This document shows positions 3,402 through 11,167 of a stretch of DNA of 64,000 nt, piece after piece; the first letter of the stretch is position 1; every line of letters begins with the position of its first letter. Both the position numbers and the translations under genes were made by a program. A model generated the notes under the pieces. The model saw only the letters and a program-made list of their open reading frames with translations. It was not told the origin of the DNA and made no database searches. Origin of the DNA: a virus (lineage: Duplodnaviria; Caudoviricetes); IMG/VR virus record IMGVR_UViG_3300025372_000001; one strand, 5' to 3'.

Positions 3402-3836
3402 ATGACACTTAAATCTCTCATTGAACAATATCTAGCAACTGATTCTATTCGATTATCCGAATCTTTGGAAAATCAAATTATTTCTCTTATTGATGAACAT
3501 GTTAAGCAACAATTTGAGATTTATAAGAAATGGGACATGCTCGTTGGAGATACTGATTATGATGGTTACGATTCCGAAAAAGGAACGTGGATATTTAAAA
3601 CTTGTTTACCAGATGAAGTTTATCTAGAACATATTGTCTATTATGGAGCATGTGGTTGTGAAGGATTTTCTAAATATTTCAAATATAATGAAATTGATAA
3701 TTTTGATTGGAAAGCATTTGAAGAAAAAGTCAAAGCTAATTGCATTAAACAATTGACCGCCCAACATAAAAGCCTTATAGATAAAGCGGATAAAATCTCT
3801 AAACAAATAGAAGAATTACAAAAGAATGAAACCTGA
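3402..3836 (+). CDS. hypothetical protein
   Basis: 144 aa ORF in operon-like packing. Confidence 0.65.
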   Translation: MTLKSLIEQYLATDSIRLSESLENQIISLIDEHVKQQFEIYKKWDMLVGDTDYDGYDSEKGTWIFKTCLPDEVYLEHIVYYGACGCEGFSKYFKYNEIDNFDWKAFEEKVKANCIKQLTAQHKSLIDKADKISKQIEELQKNET

Positions 3837-4679: not shown

Positions 4680-6237
4680 ATGAATAAGAATATACATCAA
4701 AAATTTCTTGATAGCCTGAAAGGCATGACAAAGAGGGATGCTATCGATGAAGTTAGTAAAGCATTAAACATGACATGTGATTGTTTTTTGTATGGAACGG
4801 TTATTTCTCGTGTTGCAAGAGATAGTATCATATTATGGCTATTAGATGGTATTGTGCAACAAGCCAATGCGGGGGACCCTAGTCGTTTACATAAAGAAAG
4901 TTAAACAATAAAATAAAAAAAAATATGAATTGGAAAGACACTGTAAACGAATCAATTTTGGCATATCCAACGCTTTATTTGAAAAATAGCTGGGAAGCAA
5001 GTGAATTTGCTGTTGCGCATCATTTCTTTATTGTTCTAGGAAATGGATTGGAATGGGCAGAAACTAAAGACCCTTTGAAAGGTGGTTATTTAACTTCCCC
5101 TAAATCATATAAACGCAATGGGGAATGGAAGAGAAAGATGGATCGTCCTTATCGAAAGAAAAGTGTAATTTCTTTAAATCCTGAGATTTTTAATCCCAAA
5201 GTTAAAAAGTATCAAGTGGGACAAGTTGATCATGAATACTCTCTAGTAACTGGACGAATTGAAATGAAAAGAAATTTTCGTTCTCGTTGCGGAAGGTCTA
5301 AACTTCTTACAGAAGAAGAATTAACTATTTTAAATGGTTTCAAGGTATTGGTTTTAAATGGAGACAAGGTTTATCTTACGAGTTATAAGAAAGATAAACA
5401 TAAGGATTACGAATATGTAGCAGAAGAAATTACTAAGTGGGATTCTCTTAATGGAGGAGATGTTGCACCATATCCTAATTTCCAGAAAACTTATTCATGT
5501 TTTTGGGAGATTGAACCGGAACTGATTAAACCAGATTGGAAAGAAGCAGGATTAAGACATTTGAAATATTGGCAAGAATGGTTTAACAATAAAGATAATC
5601 ATAAGAAATATAGTTATTGTCCTGAGAATCCCATTAATCAAAGAGAGGATAAATTGGTAGATACTCTTAAGAAATGGCATTCCGAATGGTTTAAACTTCC
5701 ATCTGATGAGTTCGTGAAGAAAATACAAAAGGAATATAATTGTCCTATTTTTACTGGTGATAATTGGGACGAAATGGAAGAATATAATTGGCAAAAACAT
5801 TTAGACGGTATAAAGTCTTTCTTGACAGAAACAATTGATAGGTTATCATAAGAAATGATAGATGAATATCTAGTTAAAGTTAATGACAAATATCAATGTT
5901 ATTGCGGCCTTGGTTATGTAAACCATGTATATGCTGATAAAACATGGTTCAGTAGTGGTTGTCGAAAACGTGCAAAGGTTTTCACTAAAGCAGAAGCATT
6001 GGAATTATTCGGTAATAAGCAGAAACATTTTAAGATTGTGAAGAAATGAATCATAATTCAACAGATTGTAGAACAAAAGAAGGAATTGCAGTCGGTCTAA
6101 TTGACGGAATTATTGCAATGTCAAGAGCACTTCGACGAATGGATGTAGATTTAACTGTTCCTATTAATGAAGCATTTATTGATTTACATTCTGATGAAGA
6201 TGTGAAATGGTTGATGAACGTTAGTACCTTATCATGA
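4680..6237 (+). CDS. hypothetical proteins (4680..4904, 4925..5851, 5855..6049, 6046..6237)
   Basis: ORF track, same-strand packing; no recognisable motifs. Confidence 0.6.
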
Positions 6238-6875
6238 AACTTATCGGAATAACCGGAAATATTGCAAGTGGTAAATCTACCATTTCTAAAATGATTGCCG
6301 AACATTATAATCTACCATTAATTAATGTTGATGATTTTTCTAGGAATTGGATAAATTTATATCCTCTAAAGGTTGCAACTGCTCTTGAATGCTTTGGTTT
6401 CCGAGATTCCAGTATGAATGTACTTGATAATCTTATGAAAGTGGTTTTTACAAAGGAAGCCAACTACGTTGATCCTGAATTTAAAAATAGTTCAAGGAGT
6501 TTTAAACAATTTTTTGAAGATTTAGTCGCAGATGATTTCTGGAATTATGTTAATCATTTTATGATTCCTGAATTTTATGATGCAATGATTATTGAACATC
6601 CAATTCTATTTGAAAAAGCAGATCAAGATAAATTCGATTTCATTATCGGTGTTGATGCAACAGATGATATTCGTGTTGACAGAATGAAGAAAAGAGGTTA
6701 TAGTCCTGCAACAACAAGGCAACGCTTAAATAATCAAATTCCTCTTTATCAAAATAAAGATAATATTGATCTTATTTTAGATAATAATATTCCCCTTACC
6801 AAAGAAGAAATCATAAATGAACTATCAAATTCCAGAGAGTTTAAAGCCCTTATATCCCAAGGTTCCTTATCATAA
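6234..6875 (+). CDS. coaE: dephospho-CoA kinase
   Basis: IGITGNIASGKST P-loop, VDD, EHPILFE, RVDRMKKRG, RLNNQIP, D.ILDNN. Confidence 0.85.
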   Translation: MKLIGITGNIASGKSTISKMIAEHYNLPLINVDDFSRNWINLYPLKVATALECFGFRDSSMNVLDNLMKVVFTKEANYVDPEFKNSSRSFKQFFEDLVADDFWNYVNHFMIPEFYDAMIIEHPILFEKADQDKFDFIIGVDATDDIRVDRMKKRGYSPATTRQRLNNQIPLYQNKDNIDLILDNNIPLTKEEIINELSNSREFKALISQGSLS

Positions 6876-7773
6876 TCTTGCTCATACAGAATCATTTGAT
6901 TGGGAATCCTGCCCTTCCGGTAATGCATATTGGGCAGCAGTATTCCATGACTTTGTTTATAATCCTAAAGTAAAAGGATTGGAAGGTAATGAGTTAGCTT
7001 CTTATAAAGCTTTTGAATCATATATGCGTAATAAAGGGGATTATTATCTCGCTTTTCCTAATTACGATCAAGTTAAGAAACTAATTATGTCAACAATGGA
7101 TCATGTGAAATATTTTGATCCAGATGATGAGGATATGGTTTGGCTTCACACCAATGATTTATTTTGTTTTCGAGATGGGGCAAATGTATATGAAAATGAA
7201 TTGAAAATCTTCAAAGAATATCAATTCACTAAATTTGATTTCTATAAGGAACGTAGATTAGAATTGTTGAAATATTATCGAAAACACCCTCTTGTTCACT
7301 CAGAAAAGATAGATGAAATTGAAAATTATTTTAGTAATTTTATTCCTCATATTGGGTTATTCGTGGGAAGCTTCAATCCGTTCACCCGTGGGCATTTTGA
7401 CATTCTTCAACAAGCAGAAAAGGTATTTGATAAGGTTATTATTGCTCAAGGACAAAATGAAGAAAAGGAAACCAATAATTATTCTCTTCATAATGTAAAG
7501 GCATTGGAATATCATGAATTGGATAGTTATGAAGGAAGTTTATTTTCTTATGTGGATAGAAAGAAAAAAGAACTCGGTAATATCACATTGGTTAGAGGAT
7601 TGAGGAATTATCATGACTTACATGATGAAAGCAATCTATTTAATTTTGCCAAAGATTATACTGATGTTCCTTTTGCCTACTTTATTTCTAAATCAGAAAA
7701 TCTACATATTAGTAGTGGAGCCGTGAGGAAATTAATATCATTAGGAAAAGACGTAAAGGAATATCTACCATGA
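6817..7773 (+). CDS. coaD: HD-superfamily hydrolase domain fused to phosphopantetheine adenylyltransferase
   Basis: N-terminal YHNLAH...AAVFHDFVYNP (HD-type); C-terminal GSFNPFTRGHFDI, LVRGLRN, ISSGAVRKL. Confidence 0.85.
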   Translation: MNYQIPESLKPLYPKVPYHNLAHTESFDWESCPSGNAYWAAVFHDFVYNPKVKGLEGNELASYKAFESYMRNKGDYYLAFPNYDQVKKLIMSTMDHVKYFDPDDEDMVWLHTNDLFCFRDGANVYENELKIFKEYQFTKFDFYKERRLELLKYYRKHPLVHSEKIDEIENYFSNFIPHIGLFVGSFNPFTRGHFDILQQAEKVFDKVIIAQGQNEEKETNNYSLHNVKALEYHELDSYEGSLFSYVDRKKKELGNITLVRGLRNYHDLHDESNLFNFAKDYTDVPFAYFISKSENLHISSGAVRKLISLGKDVKEYLP

Positions 7774-8833: not shown

Positions 8834-10552
8834 ATGTTCAATACAAAGAAAACCCAACTATTCGTTCCTCCTGCAAAGACTCCAAAATTTAAGTCTGTTG
8901 CAGAAATTACCTCATCTCCTTCAGCAAAAACTCCTTTGCCTATTTTTGTACAATCTGCTCAAAAGAAATCATTTGAAATTCTATCTGGCAACGGAGCCTT
9001 GAAGTACTCTTCAACTGGTAATGAAGGAGTAAATCAATTCGCTAAAGTAGGATCATATAAAAAGCCTCGGCCTTTTAACGAAATTGAAAAAGATTGTGAA
9101 CTTCTTTGGGCAGAAGACCCTCTTAATTCTGTTAAATTTATTCATTATCTTCGCACTATCACTCGAAAAGTTCAACTCATTGATGGTTCTGTAACTGCTG
9201 AACCTCAAAAGGGAGGAGAACTTAAACACGAAGCAATCATGCGTATGATTTGGCTTTTCACTAAAAGCCCCGACACCTTTTGGAAGAATATTGGCTGGTT
9301 TATTGCTCTTGGTTCTTGGCACGACATCTTTACCATGTTGCAATATGATCTGGTTTATAATGGATGGGAAAGTCGTGTTTTAGATTGGAACAAGATGGGA
9401 AACGTTATTCTGGTTGGTCTTGCTGATTCTCATACCTCTGAACTGGTTAAGAAGTACCTTCCACAAATTAAAGCTAGGTCTGATTGTAAGACGGTCGAAA
9501 GTCAAGCTAATACTACAATTGGAAAGTGGATTTGTTCTCTTCTGTTTGGTCCAAAGGAAACATCTTATAATTATAAGACTTATCGTAAACTTAAATCAGG
9601 CGGTACTGCCCATCAGTGGCAACAATTGATTTCTCAAAAGAAGTTTGATCAAATTGATTTTGGTGCAATTCATGGACGAGCATTACATCTACTTGTTCGT
9701 AGTAAGTTCCTTAAGAATCAGAATTTATCAGATAAGTTTGCTACATGGGTCAAGAAACCGGATACAGTAGTAAGATATACTGGTTTCGTTCATGAATTAT
9801 TCACTAATATTCCTACTGCATTATCTGGAATGGCAGCACATGTTCGGGATACCGTGAATAAACAATTTGATACTCTTGTTGCTAAGGGGAAAAGTGAAAC
9901 AAAAGAAGATTCTTGTACTTGGCTACCTGTGCTAGACACATCTGGCTCAATGGGAGCACAATGTACAGGAACTAATGCTTCTTGTTTAACTGTTGCTAAG
10001 TCACTGGCATTATATTTCTCAGAATTCTTGACTGGAAAGTTTATGAATTCATTTGTTGAATTTAATACAAAGGCAAAGATGCATACGTGGCAAGGTGCTA
10101 CTCCAATTGAAAAATGGTATAATAATCGTTGTTCTCATGTAGGAAGTACTAATTTCCAAAGTGTAATTGATTTGTACGTTGATTTAAAGAATCAAGGAAT
10201 TGAAGAAGCAGAGTTTCCTACAGGAATTTTAGCAATTTCCGATTCTGAATTTAATCCTACATCTTTAGGTAAAACTAATGTGGAAGTGGCAAGGGCCAAA
10301 CTTCGTCAAGCCGGTTTTTCTGATACTTTTGTAGATAAGTTCCAGATTGTTCTTTGGAATTTACAAAGTGGATATTATGGTGCAAGTACTGGGAAGAAGT
10401 TTGAAACTGGGGCAACCGAGAAAGGTACTTATTATTTTGGGGGTTTCAATGGTTCAGTTATTTCGTTCTTAACTAATCATGAAGTTAAGACACCTGCTCA
10501 ATTGTTCTTACAAGCATTAGATCAGCAAGTTTTAAATTATATTGAATTGTAA
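8834..10552 (+). CDS. Ro60/TROVE-like protein with C-terminal vWA domain (DUF2828-like)
   Basis: N-terminal SGNGALKYSSTGN, helical body, MIDAS motif VLDTSGSM...AKSLALYF...GSTNFQSV...ISDSEFN...VLWNL. Confidence 0.82.
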   Translation: MFNTKKTQLFVPPAKTPKFKSVAEITSSPSAKTPLPIFVQSAQKKSFEILSGNGALKYSSTGNEGVNQFAKVGSYKKPRPFNEIEKDCELLWAEDPLNSVKFIHYLRTITRKVQLIDGSVTAEPQKGGELKHEAIMRMIWLFTKSPDTFWKNIGWFIALGSWHDIFTMLQYDLVYNGWESRVLDWNKMGNVILVGLADSHTSELVKKYLPQIKARSDCKTVESQANTTIGKWICSLLFGPKETSYNYKTYRKLKSGGTAHQWQQLISQKKFDQIDFGAIHGRALHLLVRSKFLKNQNLSDKFATWVKKPDTVVRYTGFVHELFTNIPTALSGMAAHVRDTVNKQFDTLVAKGKSETKEDSCTWLPVLDTSGSMGAQCTGTNASCLTVAKSLALYFSEFLTGKFMNSFVEFNTKAKMHTWQGATPIEKWYNNRCSHVGSTNFQSVIDLYVDLKNQGIEEAEFPTGILAISDSEFNPTSLGKTNVEVARAKLRQAGFSDTFVDKFQIVLWNLQSGYYGASTGKKFETGATEKGTYYFGGFNGSVISFLTNHEVKTPAQLFLQALDQQVLNYIEL

Positions 10553-10567: not shown

Positions 10568-10594
10568 ACTTTCCTACGAGGTACGTAGGAAAGT
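10568..10594 (+). terminator. hairpin after the Ro60-like gene (terminator or processing site)
   Basis: ACTTTCCTACG-AGGTA-CGTAGGAAAGT perfect 11-bp stem, no long U tail. Confidence 0.55.
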
Positions 10595-10605: not shown

Positions 10606-10635
10606 TTGACAATGATAGTATGATGGGTTAAGTTA
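10606..10635 (+). promoter_or_regulatory. sigma70-like promoter driving the ncRNA array
   Basis: TTGACA-17-TAAGTT about 12 nt upstream of unit 1. Confidence 0.7.
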
Positions 10636-10646
10636 GTATCAAGACA

Positions 10647-11055
10647 AGAGTTCTTACAGCAAATTATAAATTCTGCTTTATAGAAAACAAAAGAACTCTG
10701 AAAAAGAGACGCACAGCAAACCAATTTACCTTTGTATTCGGCACAAACAAGTAAACGTCTCTTGAACAAGAAATCAAACTGCAAAACAAAAATTTATTGG
10801 CAAAATAAAACAAACGATTTCTGATAAGAAGACAGTCCCGCAAATATAACAAAAAATCTATGTTCAAACAGAACCGAGAGCGTTCGATTCGCTCAACTTT
10901 ATAACTTGGTGTTTGGTAAAGGTCAAAAAGTTAGTCTTCTGAAAAGGTTTTATACTGCAAATTAAAAAGCATTTCAAGCCGTTGGTCGAAGGTTCAAGTC
11001 CTTCCTCTCTATTTTAGAGAGTAGCTCAGTTGGTAGAGCAACGTAAACAAAACCT
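10647..11055 (+). ncRNA. array of five Y-RNA-like stem-closed units
   Basis: Units 10647-10699, 10704-10763, 10769-10822, 10827-10940, 10945-11055; each closed by a different 7-9 bp stem and followed within the loop by ACAGCAAA/ACTGCAAA/CCCGCAAA; T-arm in unit 4; T-acceptor-D module in unit 5. Confidence 0.8.
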
Positions 11056-11064
11056 GTTAAAACG

Positions 11065-11094
11065 AAAACCGACAAGTAAAGTTGTCGGTTTTTT
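11065..11094 (+). terminator. intrinsic terminator of the ncRNA array
   Basis: AAAACCGACAA-GTAAAG-TTGTCGGTTTTTT. Confidence 0.85.
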
Positions 11095-11167
11095 GTTGTC
11101 GAAAAAGTGGAAACAGGATGACGAAAGTGTTACAGTATCAGTCACCTGTGACTAAATAAACAAACAG

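What the first reader, a model, noticed from the sequence alone, without database searches (positions are those of the whole stretch)
10945..11055. Unit 5 contains a complete circularly permuted tRNA module (T-arm, acceptor, D-arm)
Seen: CGTT-GGTC-[GAAGG TTCAAGT CCTTC]-[CTCTCT ATTTT AGAGAG]-TA-[GCTC AGTTGGTA GAGC]-AACG. That is the 3' half of a tRNA followed by its 5' half, with the acceptor stem closed by a loop (no CCA end) and AACG pairing back to CGTT. Unit 4 keeps a clear T-arm (GAGCG TTCGATT CGCTC, 10878-10894) with a degenerate remainder. Established: bacterial YrlA Y RNAs have this T-acceptor-D arrangement attached to the Ro-binding stem (Wolin laboratory work); permuted tRNA genes also occur in Cyanidioschyzon. 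Inference: a tRNA-elbow mimic tethered to the Ro-like protein, probably derived from adjacent halves of tandem tRNA genes.
Basis: partly seen in the sequence, partly recalled or inferred. Interest (0 to 1): 0.8.

Follow-up and report, generated by a model that had tools for sequence, protein, structure and literature searches.

The report
Permuted tRNA mimic in phage RNA
The last of five small RNA genes beside a Ro60-shaped protein gene in a freshwater jumbo phage carries a conserved "inside-out" tRNA body; the design is known from bacterial YrlA Y RNAs, but here it sits on a different handle next to a different protein family, which points to a second Ro/Y-RNA-like particle, common in phages, for which I found no published description.

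Summary
Window 10980-11043 reads joining stem, UGGUC, T-arm, closed 7-bp acceptor hairpin, UA, D-arm, joining stem. It lies inside unit 5 (10946-11056) of a five-unit RNA array.

It is not chance. Rfam YrlA matches at E 4.7e-9, though at 46.4 bits it is below the gathering score of 69. A model built from 25 related units finds 72 copies in 88 loci, all on the strand of the neighbouring gene. 93% of base-pair cells pair (58-64% in shuffles, about 44% with partners slid), and the universal tRNA elbow nucleotides are near-invariant.

The neighbouring 572-aa protein has the Ro60 fold (Z 20.5 to 1yvp). By sequence it is DUF2828/DUF7788, not TROVE. The RNA handle is G-stem + ACAGCAA … C-UG, not YrlA's GNCGAA.

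So it works like YrlA but is not a member in the strict sense; I class it as a new variant of a known kind. Binding, expression and function are inferred, not shown. Origin from tandem tRNA halves is untested.

This scan has met the same RNA-protein pairing before on other DNA (Felix O1-type phages, an Akkermansia-type bacterium). I found no published description.

The parts
8834..10552 (+). 572-aa Ro60-fold protein of the DUF2828/DUF7788 family (helical ring plus vWA domain with a DTSGS MIDAS motif); presumed protein partner
   Evidence: Pfam DUF7788 2e-9 and DUF2828 below cut-off, no TROVE hit. PHROG 850 'RNA-binding protein' 1e-33. AF2 model pLDDT 82. Foldseek top 13 PDB hits are all Ro60. 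VIA-align Z 20.5 to 1yvp_A over 433 residues. Best AFDB hits are DUF7788/DUF2828 proteins, with TROVE only at rank 27.
10568..10594 (+). Strong hairpin directly after the protein gene, with no U tract
   Evidence: -15.8 kcal/mol, z -4.67.
10606..10634 (+). Promoter-like TTGACA-17 nt-TAAGTT in front of the array (weak -10 box)
   Evidence: Read from the sequence. Not flagged by the consensus scan. Similar TTGACA-N17/18-TAAnnT sites precede the arrays in L002 and L006. Inferred, not shown.
10648..10700 (+). Unit 1: simple handle RNA (G-stem, CUUACAGCAA, A-rich interior, C-UG)
   Evidence: Parser. Rfam Dicty_Class_I_RNA 33.9 bits, gathering score 41.5.
10705..10765 (+). Unit 2: simple handle RNA (GCACAGCAA), ends C-UUG
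   Evidence: Parser.
10770..10823 (+). Unit 3: simple handle RNA (AAACUGCAA)
   Evidence: Parser.
10828..10941 (+). Unit 4: handle RNA with an intact T-arm (10878-10894) and a degenerate remainder
   Evidence: R1 16 bits, E 0.4. The T-arm appears in the MFE fold. A homologous unit occurs in L002 6174-6290.
10946..11056 (+). Unit 5: handle RNA carrying the complete permuted tRNA-like module (the finding)
10946..10951 (+). Unit 5 closing stem, 5' strand GGUUUU, pairs with 11049-11054
   Evidence: Present in the MFE fold. Across R1 hits the closing helix averages 7.4 bp, against 5.4 with permuted partners.
10954..10960 (+). Handle motif ACUGCAA (family consensus ACAGCAA), presumed protein-binding element
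   Evidence: ACAGCA is 87-97% conserved in 69 distinct R1 hits. Consensus over 277 units.
10980..10983 (+). Joining stem, 5' strand CGUU (anticodon-stem equivalent), pairs with 11040-11043
   Evidence: The two inner pairs covary (6 pair types each); the outer pairs are variable; helix 75% paired.
10984..10987 (+). GGUC, which with U10983 forms the variable-loop equivalent UGGUC (G46, C48)
   Evidence: G and U invariant and C nearly invariant in A2.
10988..11004 (+). T-arm GAAGG/UUCAAGU/CCUUC
   Evidence: 98-99% paired, 4 of 5 pairs with compensatory changes. G53, T54, T55, C56, A58 and C61 are 94-100% conserved.
11005..11021 (+). Closed acceptor-like hairpin, 7 bp (CUCUCUA/UAGAGAG) with a UUU loop; no CCA
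   Evidence: 97% paired, and all 6 modelled pairs have compensatory changes. Loop length ranges from 3 to about 25 nt among relatives.
11022..11023 (+). U8-A9 equivalent
   Evidence: U 97% conserved.
11024..11039 (+). D-arm GCUC/AGUUGGUA/GAGC
   Evidence: 98-100% paired. A14, G18, G19 and A21 are 86-97% conserved.
11040..11043 (+). Joining stem, 3' strand AACG
11049..11054 (+). Unit 5 closing stem, 3' strand AAAACC, followed by UG
11061..11097 (+). Intrinsic-terminator-like hairpin with a U run that ends the array
   Evidence: -16.5 kcal/mol, z -5.06.

Best explanation
Unit 5 is a roughly 110-nt non-coding RNA made of two modules. The first is a handle: a 6-bp terminal stem closed by G-C, the single-stranded motif ACUGCAA just inside the 5' strand, an A-rich 3' side and a C-UG end. 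All five units of the array share this handle, as do hundreds of units next to homologous genes. I infer that the handle is bound by the Ro60-fold DUF2828/DUF7788 protein encoded immediately upstream, as the Y RNA stem is bound by Ro60. The second module is a circularly permuted tRNA body: T-arm, closed acceptor hairpin and D-arm, joined to the handle through the anticodon-stem equivalent. It keeps every nucleotide that builds the tRNA L-shape and elbow, but it has no anticodon loop and no free CCA end, so it cannot decode or be charged as made. The most likely function is that of YrlA: an elbow-shaped docking surface, held on the ring protein, that recruits or occupies a tRNA-binding factor (an exoribonuclease, or a tRNA processing, repair or modification enzyme) during infection. 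Shown here: the sequence, the conserved and covarying structure, the Ro60 fold, and linkage and co-orientation with the gene. Inferred: transcription, protein binding and the docking function.
For: Sequence as described. Rfam YrlA hit E 4.7e-9, with the T, acceptor and D core aligned at high posterior. RNAalifold recovers the T, acceptor and D stems, 12 of 15 pairs with compensatory changes. With the joining stem added, 93.4% of cells pair against 63.8% shuffled and about 44% slid, with 152 double-change cells in 25 sequences. In 69 distinct hits the figures are 93.0% and 475. Model R1 finds 72 hits in 88 loci, all on the gene strand, in 46 of 80 IMG/VR loci; 63 lie downstream (median 448 nt) and 9 upstream. 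U8, G10, A14, G18, G19, A21, G53, T54, T55, C56, A58 and C61 are 86-100% conserved. The closing stem averages 7.4 bp against 5.4 with permuted partners. Handle units number 277 on the gene strand and 8 on the opposite strand of 576 kb; in the 64-kb window four units pass the strict rule and none lies elsewhere on the + strand. The protein has the Ro60 fold. The same module plus handle occurs next to DUF2828 genes in cultured phages: Klebsiella KP2025 and Salmonella Felix O1. A true TROVE Ro60 in Vibrio phage BONAISHI has a canonical YrlA-like RNA whose module is 82% identical to unit 5. YrlA's known properties come from Chen 2014 and Wang 2018.
Against: There is no expression or processing data: the phage comes from a freshwater metagenome and no RNA run holds it. 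No experiment or complex prediction tests binding. The whole unit folds only modestly better than shuffles (z -1.85), and the D-arm is absent from the MFE of the isolated module. The Rfam YrlA gathering score is not reached, nor is it in 20 related loci. The outer pairs of the joining stem pair in only about half of the sequences. In Felix O1 the unit lies about 1 kb from the gene inside the tRNA cluster, so linkage could partly reflect a general clustering of RNA genes. The promoter is weak and was not flagged by the consensus scan.
Confidence: 0.72

Rival explanations
1. Decoy or sponge. The tRNA-like body, together with the anticodon-arm-like inserts of sister units, soaks up host tRNA-targeting defence enzymes (anticodon nucleases, tRNA-modifying toxins). 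The protein mainly stabilises or presents the decoys. This overlaps with the best explanation but reverses the logic: the RNA is the effector rather than an adaptor.
For: 52 of 160 simple units in related arrays contain a hairpin with a stem of at least 4 bp, a 7-nt loop, U33 and R37, against 5.3 +/- 2.4 in shuffles. The commonest loop, CUUUUAA (12 times), equals the tRNA-Lys(UUU) anticodon loop of every tRNA-Lys in these loci. Non-permuted D-anticodon-T bodies sit on the same handle. DUF2828 genes lie in phage tRNA clusters and next to an RNA ligase in GAP32.
Against: Unit 5 itself has no anticodon loop, so it cannot decoy an anticodon nuclease. In this window the interiors of units 1-3 fit anticodon arms poorly. 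The sequences are A/T-rich and only mononucleotide shuffles were used as control. No defence system is known to be blocked.
Confidence: 0.2
2. Split tRNA-like product. RNase P and RNase Z cut at the 7-bp acceptor hairpin and CCA is added, as shown for M. smegmatis YrlA. This yields a two-piece molecule with a free acceptor end that could be charged or bound by translation factors.
For: Unit 5 can form a 7-bp acceptor stem. Relatives have 7-8-bp stems with long loops of up to about 25 nt. [quoted passage not shown]
Against: The loop here is only 3 nt. No discriminator or CCA is encoded in the sequences inspected. There is no anticodon arm, so a decoding role is impossible. Most YrlA RNAs are not cleaved.
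Confidence: 0.05
3. Canonical YrlA: a true member of the Rsr/Ro60 Y RNA family serving a TROVE protein.
For: Same module topology and a significant Rfam YrlA hit. The protein has the Ro60 fold.
Against: There is no TROVE hit in the neighbour and no Ro60 homolog elsewhere in the window by tblastn. BLASTP of the window protein against a real phage Ro60 gives no significant match (best E 0.12). The GNCGAA motif is absent. The score is below the gathering cut-off and the outer stems do not align.
Confidence: 0.03
4. Decayed remnant of tandem tRNA genes, or a chance juxtaposition, with no function.
For: Unit 4 beside it is degenerate. DUF2828 genes often sit in tRNA clusters, which would supply raw material.
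Against: Compensatory changes occur in every helix across 69 distinct sequences. Elbow nucleotides are invariant, the strand bias is 72:0, and the module always sits inside the same handle. No flanking tRNA halves are present.
Confidence: 0.01

Closest known systems
YrlA Y RNAs of Salmonella, M. smegmatis and mycobacteriophages (Rfam RF02553; Chen 2014 PMC4201824; structure 6CU1, Wang 2018 bioRxiv 10.1101/312249)
   Same: Both have a circularly permuted tRNA body in the order T-arm, closed acceptor hairpin, D-arm, joined through the anticodon-stem equivalent to a protein-binding stem. The tRNA tertiary nucleotides are conserved. Both are encoded next to a ring-plus-vWA protein of the Ro60 fold, and several sister RNAs sit in a row.
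   Different: The partner protein is DUF2828/DUF7788, not TROVE, and shows no pairwise sequence similarity to a phage Ro60. The handle is a 6-8-bp G...C stem plus ACAGCAA, not GNCGAAN0-1G. The T stem covaries freely here, whereas Wang 2018 stress conserved T and D stem sequences. The Rfam gathering score is not reached.
Deinococcus radiodurans Yrn1
   Same: In Yrn1 the tRNA-like part is in the other orientation relative to the RNA ends (Chen 2014). Sister units L028 5990-6104, L030 2788-2903 and L086 5279-5403 carry D-arm, anticodon arm and T-arm on the handle.
   Different: Unit 5 itself has the YrlA orientation. In this family both orientations occur on one and the same handle.
M. smegmatis YrlB
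   Same: A sister Y RNA that retains only a T-arm (Chen 2014), like unit 4 here and the third unit of Leptolyngbya phage Lbo-JY46.
   Different: The handle and the protein family differ.
Thermus phage phiLo Ro60 with Yrl1/Yrl2 (PMC12135203; PDB 9KOP, 9L5Y)
   Same: A phage-encoded Ro60-fold protein with adjacent small RNAs. It is the best Foldseek match of the window protein and forms a complex with host PNPase.
   Different: phiLo Ro60 is a TROVE protein. Its Yrl RNAs were picked by a CGAA motif, and no tRNA-like domain is reported for them.
Dictyostelium Class I RNAs (Rfam RF01414; Kjellin 2021 PMC7919456)
   Same: This resemblance concerns the handle only: a short terminal stem that begins with an invariant G, a conserved motif CUUACAGCAA directly after the 5' strand, a variable interior, start AAG and end CUG(U). 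Phage simple units score 34-39 bits against a gathering score of 41.5.
   Different: Class I RNAs are eukaryotic, dispersed, 42-65 nt long, carry no tRNA module, and are known to bind an RRM protein (Rnp1A). No phage unit reaches the gathering score. Homology is untested.

Membership tests
YrlA (Rfam RF02553; Chen 2014) | tRNA-like domain in the order T stem-loop, closed acceptor stem-loop, D stem-loop, with conserved tRNA tertiary nucleotides | tested here: met
YrlA (Rfam RF02553; Chen 2014) | Score at or above Rfam's curated gathering threshold (69 bits) | tested here: not met
   46.4 bits. None of 20 related loci reaches it.
YrlA (Rfam RF02553; Chen 2014) | Encoded within 4 kb of a TROVE-domain Ro60 ortholog | tested here: not met
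   The neighbour is DUF2828/DUF7788 with no TROVE hit. No Ro60 homolog is found in the window by tblastn. The fold, however, is Ro60-like.
YrlA (Rfam RF02553; Chen 2014) | GNCGAAN0-1G motif on the 5' strand of the Ro60-binding stem | tested here: not met
   10946-10979 contains ACUGCAA and no G-N-CGAA. The outer stems are marked non-canonical in the Rfam alignment.
YrlA (Rfam RF02553; Chen 2014) | Bound by Rsr/Ro60 and modified by TruB and DusA | not testable with these tools
   Needs RIP and modification mapping.
Ro60/TROVE protein family (for the neighbour) | Pfam TROVE domain plus Ro60-type vWA domain | tested here: not met
   The window protein hits only DUF7788 and DUF2828. BONAISHI ORF49c does hit TROVE and vWA_Ro60.
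Ro60/TROVE protein family (for the neighbour) | Ring of helical repeats closed by a vWA domain with a MIDAS motif (Ro60 fold) | tested here: met
   Foldseek top 13 hits are all Ro60. Z 13.4-20.5 over more than 400 residues. DTSGS is conserved in A1.
Canonical tRNA gene | Cloverleaf with anticodon arm and open acceptor end, called by ARAGORN or Rfam tRNA | tested here: not met
   No call at this site.
Permuted tRNA gene (Cyanidioschyzon type) | 3' half followed by 5' half, with an intact anticodon arm, maturing to a functional tRNA | tested here: not met
   There is no anticodon loop. The joining stem opens into the handle that is shared with units lacking any tRNA part.
Dictyostelium Class I RNA (RF01414), for the handle | Short terminal stem starting with G, 11-nt motif after the 5' strand, CUG(U) end, score at or above 41.5 bits | tested here: inconclusive
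   The architecture is met. Unit 5 gives no RF01414 hit. Unit 1 scores 33.9 and relatives up to 39.3 bits, all below the cut-off.

The most novel reading that the evidence does not exclude
The DUF2828/DUF7788 protein plus ACAGCAA-handle RNAs form a distinct, widespread Ro-like ribonucleoprotein class. Its handle is homologous to that of the Dictyostelium Class I RNAs. Its interchangeable inserts (anticodon arms such as tRNA-Lys, T-arms, whole permuted or non-permuted tRNA bodies) let phages present pieces of tRNA to host tRNA-targeting defence or repair enzymes.
Probability: 0.15. Interest if true: 0.85.

Novelty: new variant of a known kind. Interest (0 to 1): 0.6.

Why it matters
Ro60/Y RNA particles are a conserved RNA-surveillance machine, and the purpose of their tRNA-like domain is still unknown. 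Here the same tRNA mimic rides on a different handle beside a different protein with the same fold. This occurs in many phages, including cultured ones such as Felix O1 and Klebsiella phage KP2025. That suggests selection acts on the mimic itself, and it offers tractable phage-host systems for finding what binds the elbow. It also shows that short 'hypothetical protein' genes and unannotated gaps next to DUF2828 genes in phage records are probably RNA genes.

Tried and rejected
- The single-sequence AF2 model was unusable (pLDDT 41). It was replaced by a model built on a 24-sequence alignment.
- Sequence searches of the PDB with the protein and with its profile gave nothing relevant. Only fold comparison found Ro60.
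- No whole genome is held for the window.
- No RNA run holds the stretch. Contigs cannot show ends or expression.
- The consensus promoter/terminator scan flagged neither the array's promoter nor its terminator, and it mis-called the T-arm as a terminator. I used folding instead.
- My first strict unit parser wrongly required CTG after the stem. I corrected it to a G...C closing pair followed by TG.
- Assigning an isotype to the module failed: the best matches (Ile, Asn, Met, Pro) reach at most 34 of 41.
- The Rfam gathering scan of 20 loci gave no YrlA or Class I hit at threshold.
- The Avesson 2011 pull-down paper is not in the library, and organisms are hidden in the AFDB and Atlas outputs. 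I therefore could not check whether Dictyostelium has a DUF2828 protein that binds Class I RNAs.
- Complex prediction was not used because it does not take RNA.
- Rejected readings: tandem-tRNA false positive, permuted tRNA gene, tmRNA, and a terminator at the T-arm.
- The October 2026 preprint on three bacterial tRNA-mimic families concerns other RNAs.

Full report
**Observation.**
- CGTT 10980-10983 and GGTC 10984-10987.
- T-arm GAAGG/TTCAAGT/CCTTC, 10988-11004.
- A hairpin CTCTCT(A)-TTT-(T)AGAGAG, 11005-11021.
- TA 11022-11023.
- D-arm GCTC/AGTTGGTA/GAGC, 11024-11039.
- AACG 11040-11043.

GGTTTT 10946-10951 pairs with AAAACC 11049-11054 to close the unit. In tRNA numbering the module has U8, A9, G10, A14, G15, G18, G19, A21, G46, C48, G53, T54, T55, C56, A58 and C61. 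It has no anticodon loop and no CCA. The unit 4 T-arm is at 10878-10894, as stated. ARAGORN and Rfam tRNA call nothing here, and no other tRNA halves flank it. It is therefore not the tandem-tRNA false positive that Chen et al. warn about.

**Is it more than chance?**
- Rfam's YrlA model matches 10960-11066 at 46.4 bits, E 4.7e-9 for the 900 nt searched. The T, acceptor and D core aligns at high posterior probability. The outer stems are marked non-canonical, and the score is below the gathering value of 69.
- ViennaRNA recovers the closing stem, the T-arm, the 7-bp acceptor hairpin and the D-arm in the MFE of the whole unit, with a modest z-score of -1.85. The module alone gives z -2.9.

**Context in the window.**
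- Unit 5 is the last of five tandem units: 10648-10700, 10705-10765, 10770-10823, 10828-10941 and 10946-11056.
- The array lies between a strong hairpin after the upstream gene (10568-10594, z -4.7) and a terminator-like hairpin with a U run (11061-11097, z -5.1).
- A TTGACA-17-TAAGTT site at 10606-10634 may be the promoter. The consensus scan did not flag it.
- Downstream are the class I ribonucleotide reductase genes.
- The DNA comes from a freshwater metagenome. The contig is about 262 kb, and no RNA runs hold it.

**The neighbouring protein (8834-10552, 572 aa).**
- Pfam gives DUF7788 and a sub-threshold DUF2828 hit, with no TROVE hit. PHROGs gives family 850, 'RNA-binding protein'.
- An AlphaFold2 model on a 24-sequence alignment has pLDDT 82 and pTM 0.83.
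- Its 13 best Foldseek matches in the PDB are all Ro60 structures aligned over the full length. These include phage phiLo Ro60 9KOP at E 1.4e-7, Xenopus and human Ro60, and Deinococcus Rsr.
- VIA-align gives Z 20.5 to 1yvp_A (433 residues, rmsd 4.4). Ten Ro60 entries score Z 13.4-20.5, and vWA-only matches follow at Z about 11.
- In AlphaFold DB the nearest cellular folds are DUF7788/DUF2828 proteins (E to 1e-19). A TROVE protein appears only at rank 27.
- BLASTP against a real phage Ro60 finds nothing significant, and the window has no other Ro60 homolog.

'Ro-like' is therefore right for the fold and wrong for the family.

**Conservation and covariation.**
- The protein has 1728 relatives at E up to 1e-5 in metagenomes and matches 411 phage records.
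- I fetched 80 IMG/VR loci and parsed handle units in them. Twenty-eight distinct units carried both T-loop and D-arm signatures.
- On an alignment of the 25 permuted ones, RNAalifold found the T, acceptor and D stems, with compensatory changes in 12 of 15 pairs.
- With the joining stem added, 93.4% of cells pair, against 63.8% in shuffles and 34-47% with partners slid. There are 152 double-change cells.
- The covariance model R1 finds 72 matches in 88 loci, every one on the strand of the protein gene, in 46 of the 80 IMG/VR loci. Sixty-three lie downstream (median 448 nt from the stop) and 9 upstream.
- On the 69 distinct hits, 93.0% of cells pair (58% shuffled, about 43% slid), with 475 double-change cells. 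The T stem is 99% paired, the acceptor 97%, the D stem 98% and the joining stem 75%. Only the two inner pairs of the joining stem are solid.
- The positions conserved at 86-100% are the tRNA core and elbow nucleotides plus ACAGCA.
- My parser demanded the closing stem, so I tested that stem separately on the R1 hits. The longest helix averages 7.4 bp (6.8 bp in non-seed hits), against 5.4 +/- 0.15 with permuted partners.
- With a strict rule (G...C closing pair, motif within 4 nt, then TG), the loci hold 277 units on the gene strand and 8 on the other strand. The window holds four on the + strand, all in this array.

**Relation to YrlA.**
- Vibrio phage BONAISHI was the only DNA-level hit in the phage collection: 82% identity over the 70-nt module.
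- There the module sits upstream of a genuine TROVE + vWA_Ro60 protein and scores 59.3 bits with Rfam YrlA.
- In Klebsiella phage KP2025 two modules follow a DUF2828 gene.
- In Salmonella phage Felix O1 one unit with handle and module lies in the tRNA cluster about 1 kb downstream of its DUF2828 gene (R1 36.5 bits).

The same tRNA mimic therefore serves two protein families of one fold, on two different handles: GNCGAA for Ro60 and ACAGCAA here.
- Unit 4, with its lone T-arm, parallels M. smegmatis YrlB.
- Three sister units elsewhere carry the opposite topology (D-arm, anticodon arm, T-arm). Rfam calls one of them tRNA positions 6-65. This parallels the Yrn1/YrlA difference noted by Chen et al..

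**Mechanism.**
- Shown: structure, conservation, fold and linkage.
- Inferred: the handle binds the ring protein, and the elbow-shaped module projects from it as a docking site for a tRNA-binding factor. Wang et al. proposed this for YrlA.
- A decoy role is a serious rival. 52 of 160 simple units in related arrays contain anticodon-arm-like hairpins, against 5.3 +/- 2.4 in shuffles. The commonest loop equals the tRNA-Lys(UUU) anticodon loop. DUF2828 genes sit in tRNA clusters or next to an RNA ligase. Unit 5 itself, however, has no anticodon loop.
- A 7-bp acceptor stem makes RNase P cleavage conceivable, as in M. smegmatis YrlA. The loop here is only 3 nt and no CCA is encoded.
- The origin from tandem tRNA halves cannot be judged. 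No isotype stands out.

**Novelty.**
- The full-text search finds no paper that links DUF2828 to an RNA.
- The jumbo-phage survey mentions only TROVE proteins with a tRNA-like partner.
- The phiLo study concerns a TROVE protein.
- A 2026 preprint on tRNA mimics treats other RNAs.
- No Rfam family other than YrlA and the Dictyostelium Class I model touches the array.

Earlier notes of this scan describe the same pairing on other DNA. I read them only after my own analysis, and they are not independent evidence.

**Verdict.** The feature is real and conserved, works like YrlA, and is not a YrlA family member. I class it as a new variant of a known kind.

Noticed in passing
window 10648-10700; L003 4234-4291; L002 5308-5364; consensus over 277 units: The handle of the simple units matches the defining features of Dictyostelium Class I RNAs: a terminal stem starting with G, CUUACAGCAA after the 5' strand, start AAG and end CUG(U). 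Rfam RF01414 scores 33.9-39.3 bits against a gathering score of 41.5. Kjellin 2021 report that class as unique to Dictyostelia. Homology is untested.
   Followed up: partly
L093 1609-1672 (Aeromonas phage 4_4572); 52 of 160 simple units in IMG/VR loci: Interiors of simple units are strongly enriched for anticodon-arm-like hairpins (52 observed against 5.3 +/- 2.4 in shuffles). The commonest loop, CUUUUAA, is identical to the tRNA-Lys(UUU) anticodon loop. Others read as Thr or Arg anticodons.
   Followed up: partly
L028 5990-6104; L030 2788-2903; L086 5279-5403: These units carry a non-permuted tRNA body (D-arm, anticodon arm, T-arm) whose acceptor stem is replaced by the handle stem. Rfam calls L028 6028-6088 tRNA positions 6-65 at 52.6 bits.
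   Followed up: partly
L089 4565-4690 (Salmonella phage Felix O1): An unannotated handle unit with a permuted tRNA module lies between tRNA-Asp and tRNA-Lys in the classic Felix O1 tRNA cluster, about 1 kb downstream of its DUF2828 gene (R1 36.5 bits).
   Followed up: partly
L004 3510-3763 (Staphylococcus phage S-CoN_Ph10): Two tiny annotated 'hypothetical protein' CDSs (3510-3599, 3662-3763) directly after the DUF2828 gene overlie parsed handle units (3524-3732). They are probably RNA genes mis-annotated as ORFs.
   Followed up: partly
L002 5530-6090: In the closest IMG/VR relative, the array is split in two by two small forward ORFs and a reverse-strand ORF. Each half has its own TTGACA-type promoter. 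The identity of the ORFs was not checked.
   Followed up: no
L015 435-585: A Hatchet ribozyme (RF02678) match at 75.1 bits, above its gathering score of 51, lies about 2.4 kb upstream of the DUF2828 gene in an IMG/VR contig.
   Followed up: no
L092 1004-2269 (Cronobacter phage GAP32): An annotated RNA ligase gene lies immediately upstream of the DUF2828 gene. My parser found no handle units in this locus.
   Followed up: no
L006 1857-2288 (Klebsiella phage KP2025): The record annotates a 432-nt 'tRNA-Arg' that overlaps the start of the DUF2828 gene. Rfam places the tRNA at 1857-1928 only, so this is an annotation artefact.
   Followed up: partly
window 6234-7773: Overlapping genes encode a CoaE-type dephospho-CoA kinase and a cytidylyltransferase-like protein just upstream of the Ro-like gene (Pfam). 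This is unusual phage cargo.
   Followed up: no
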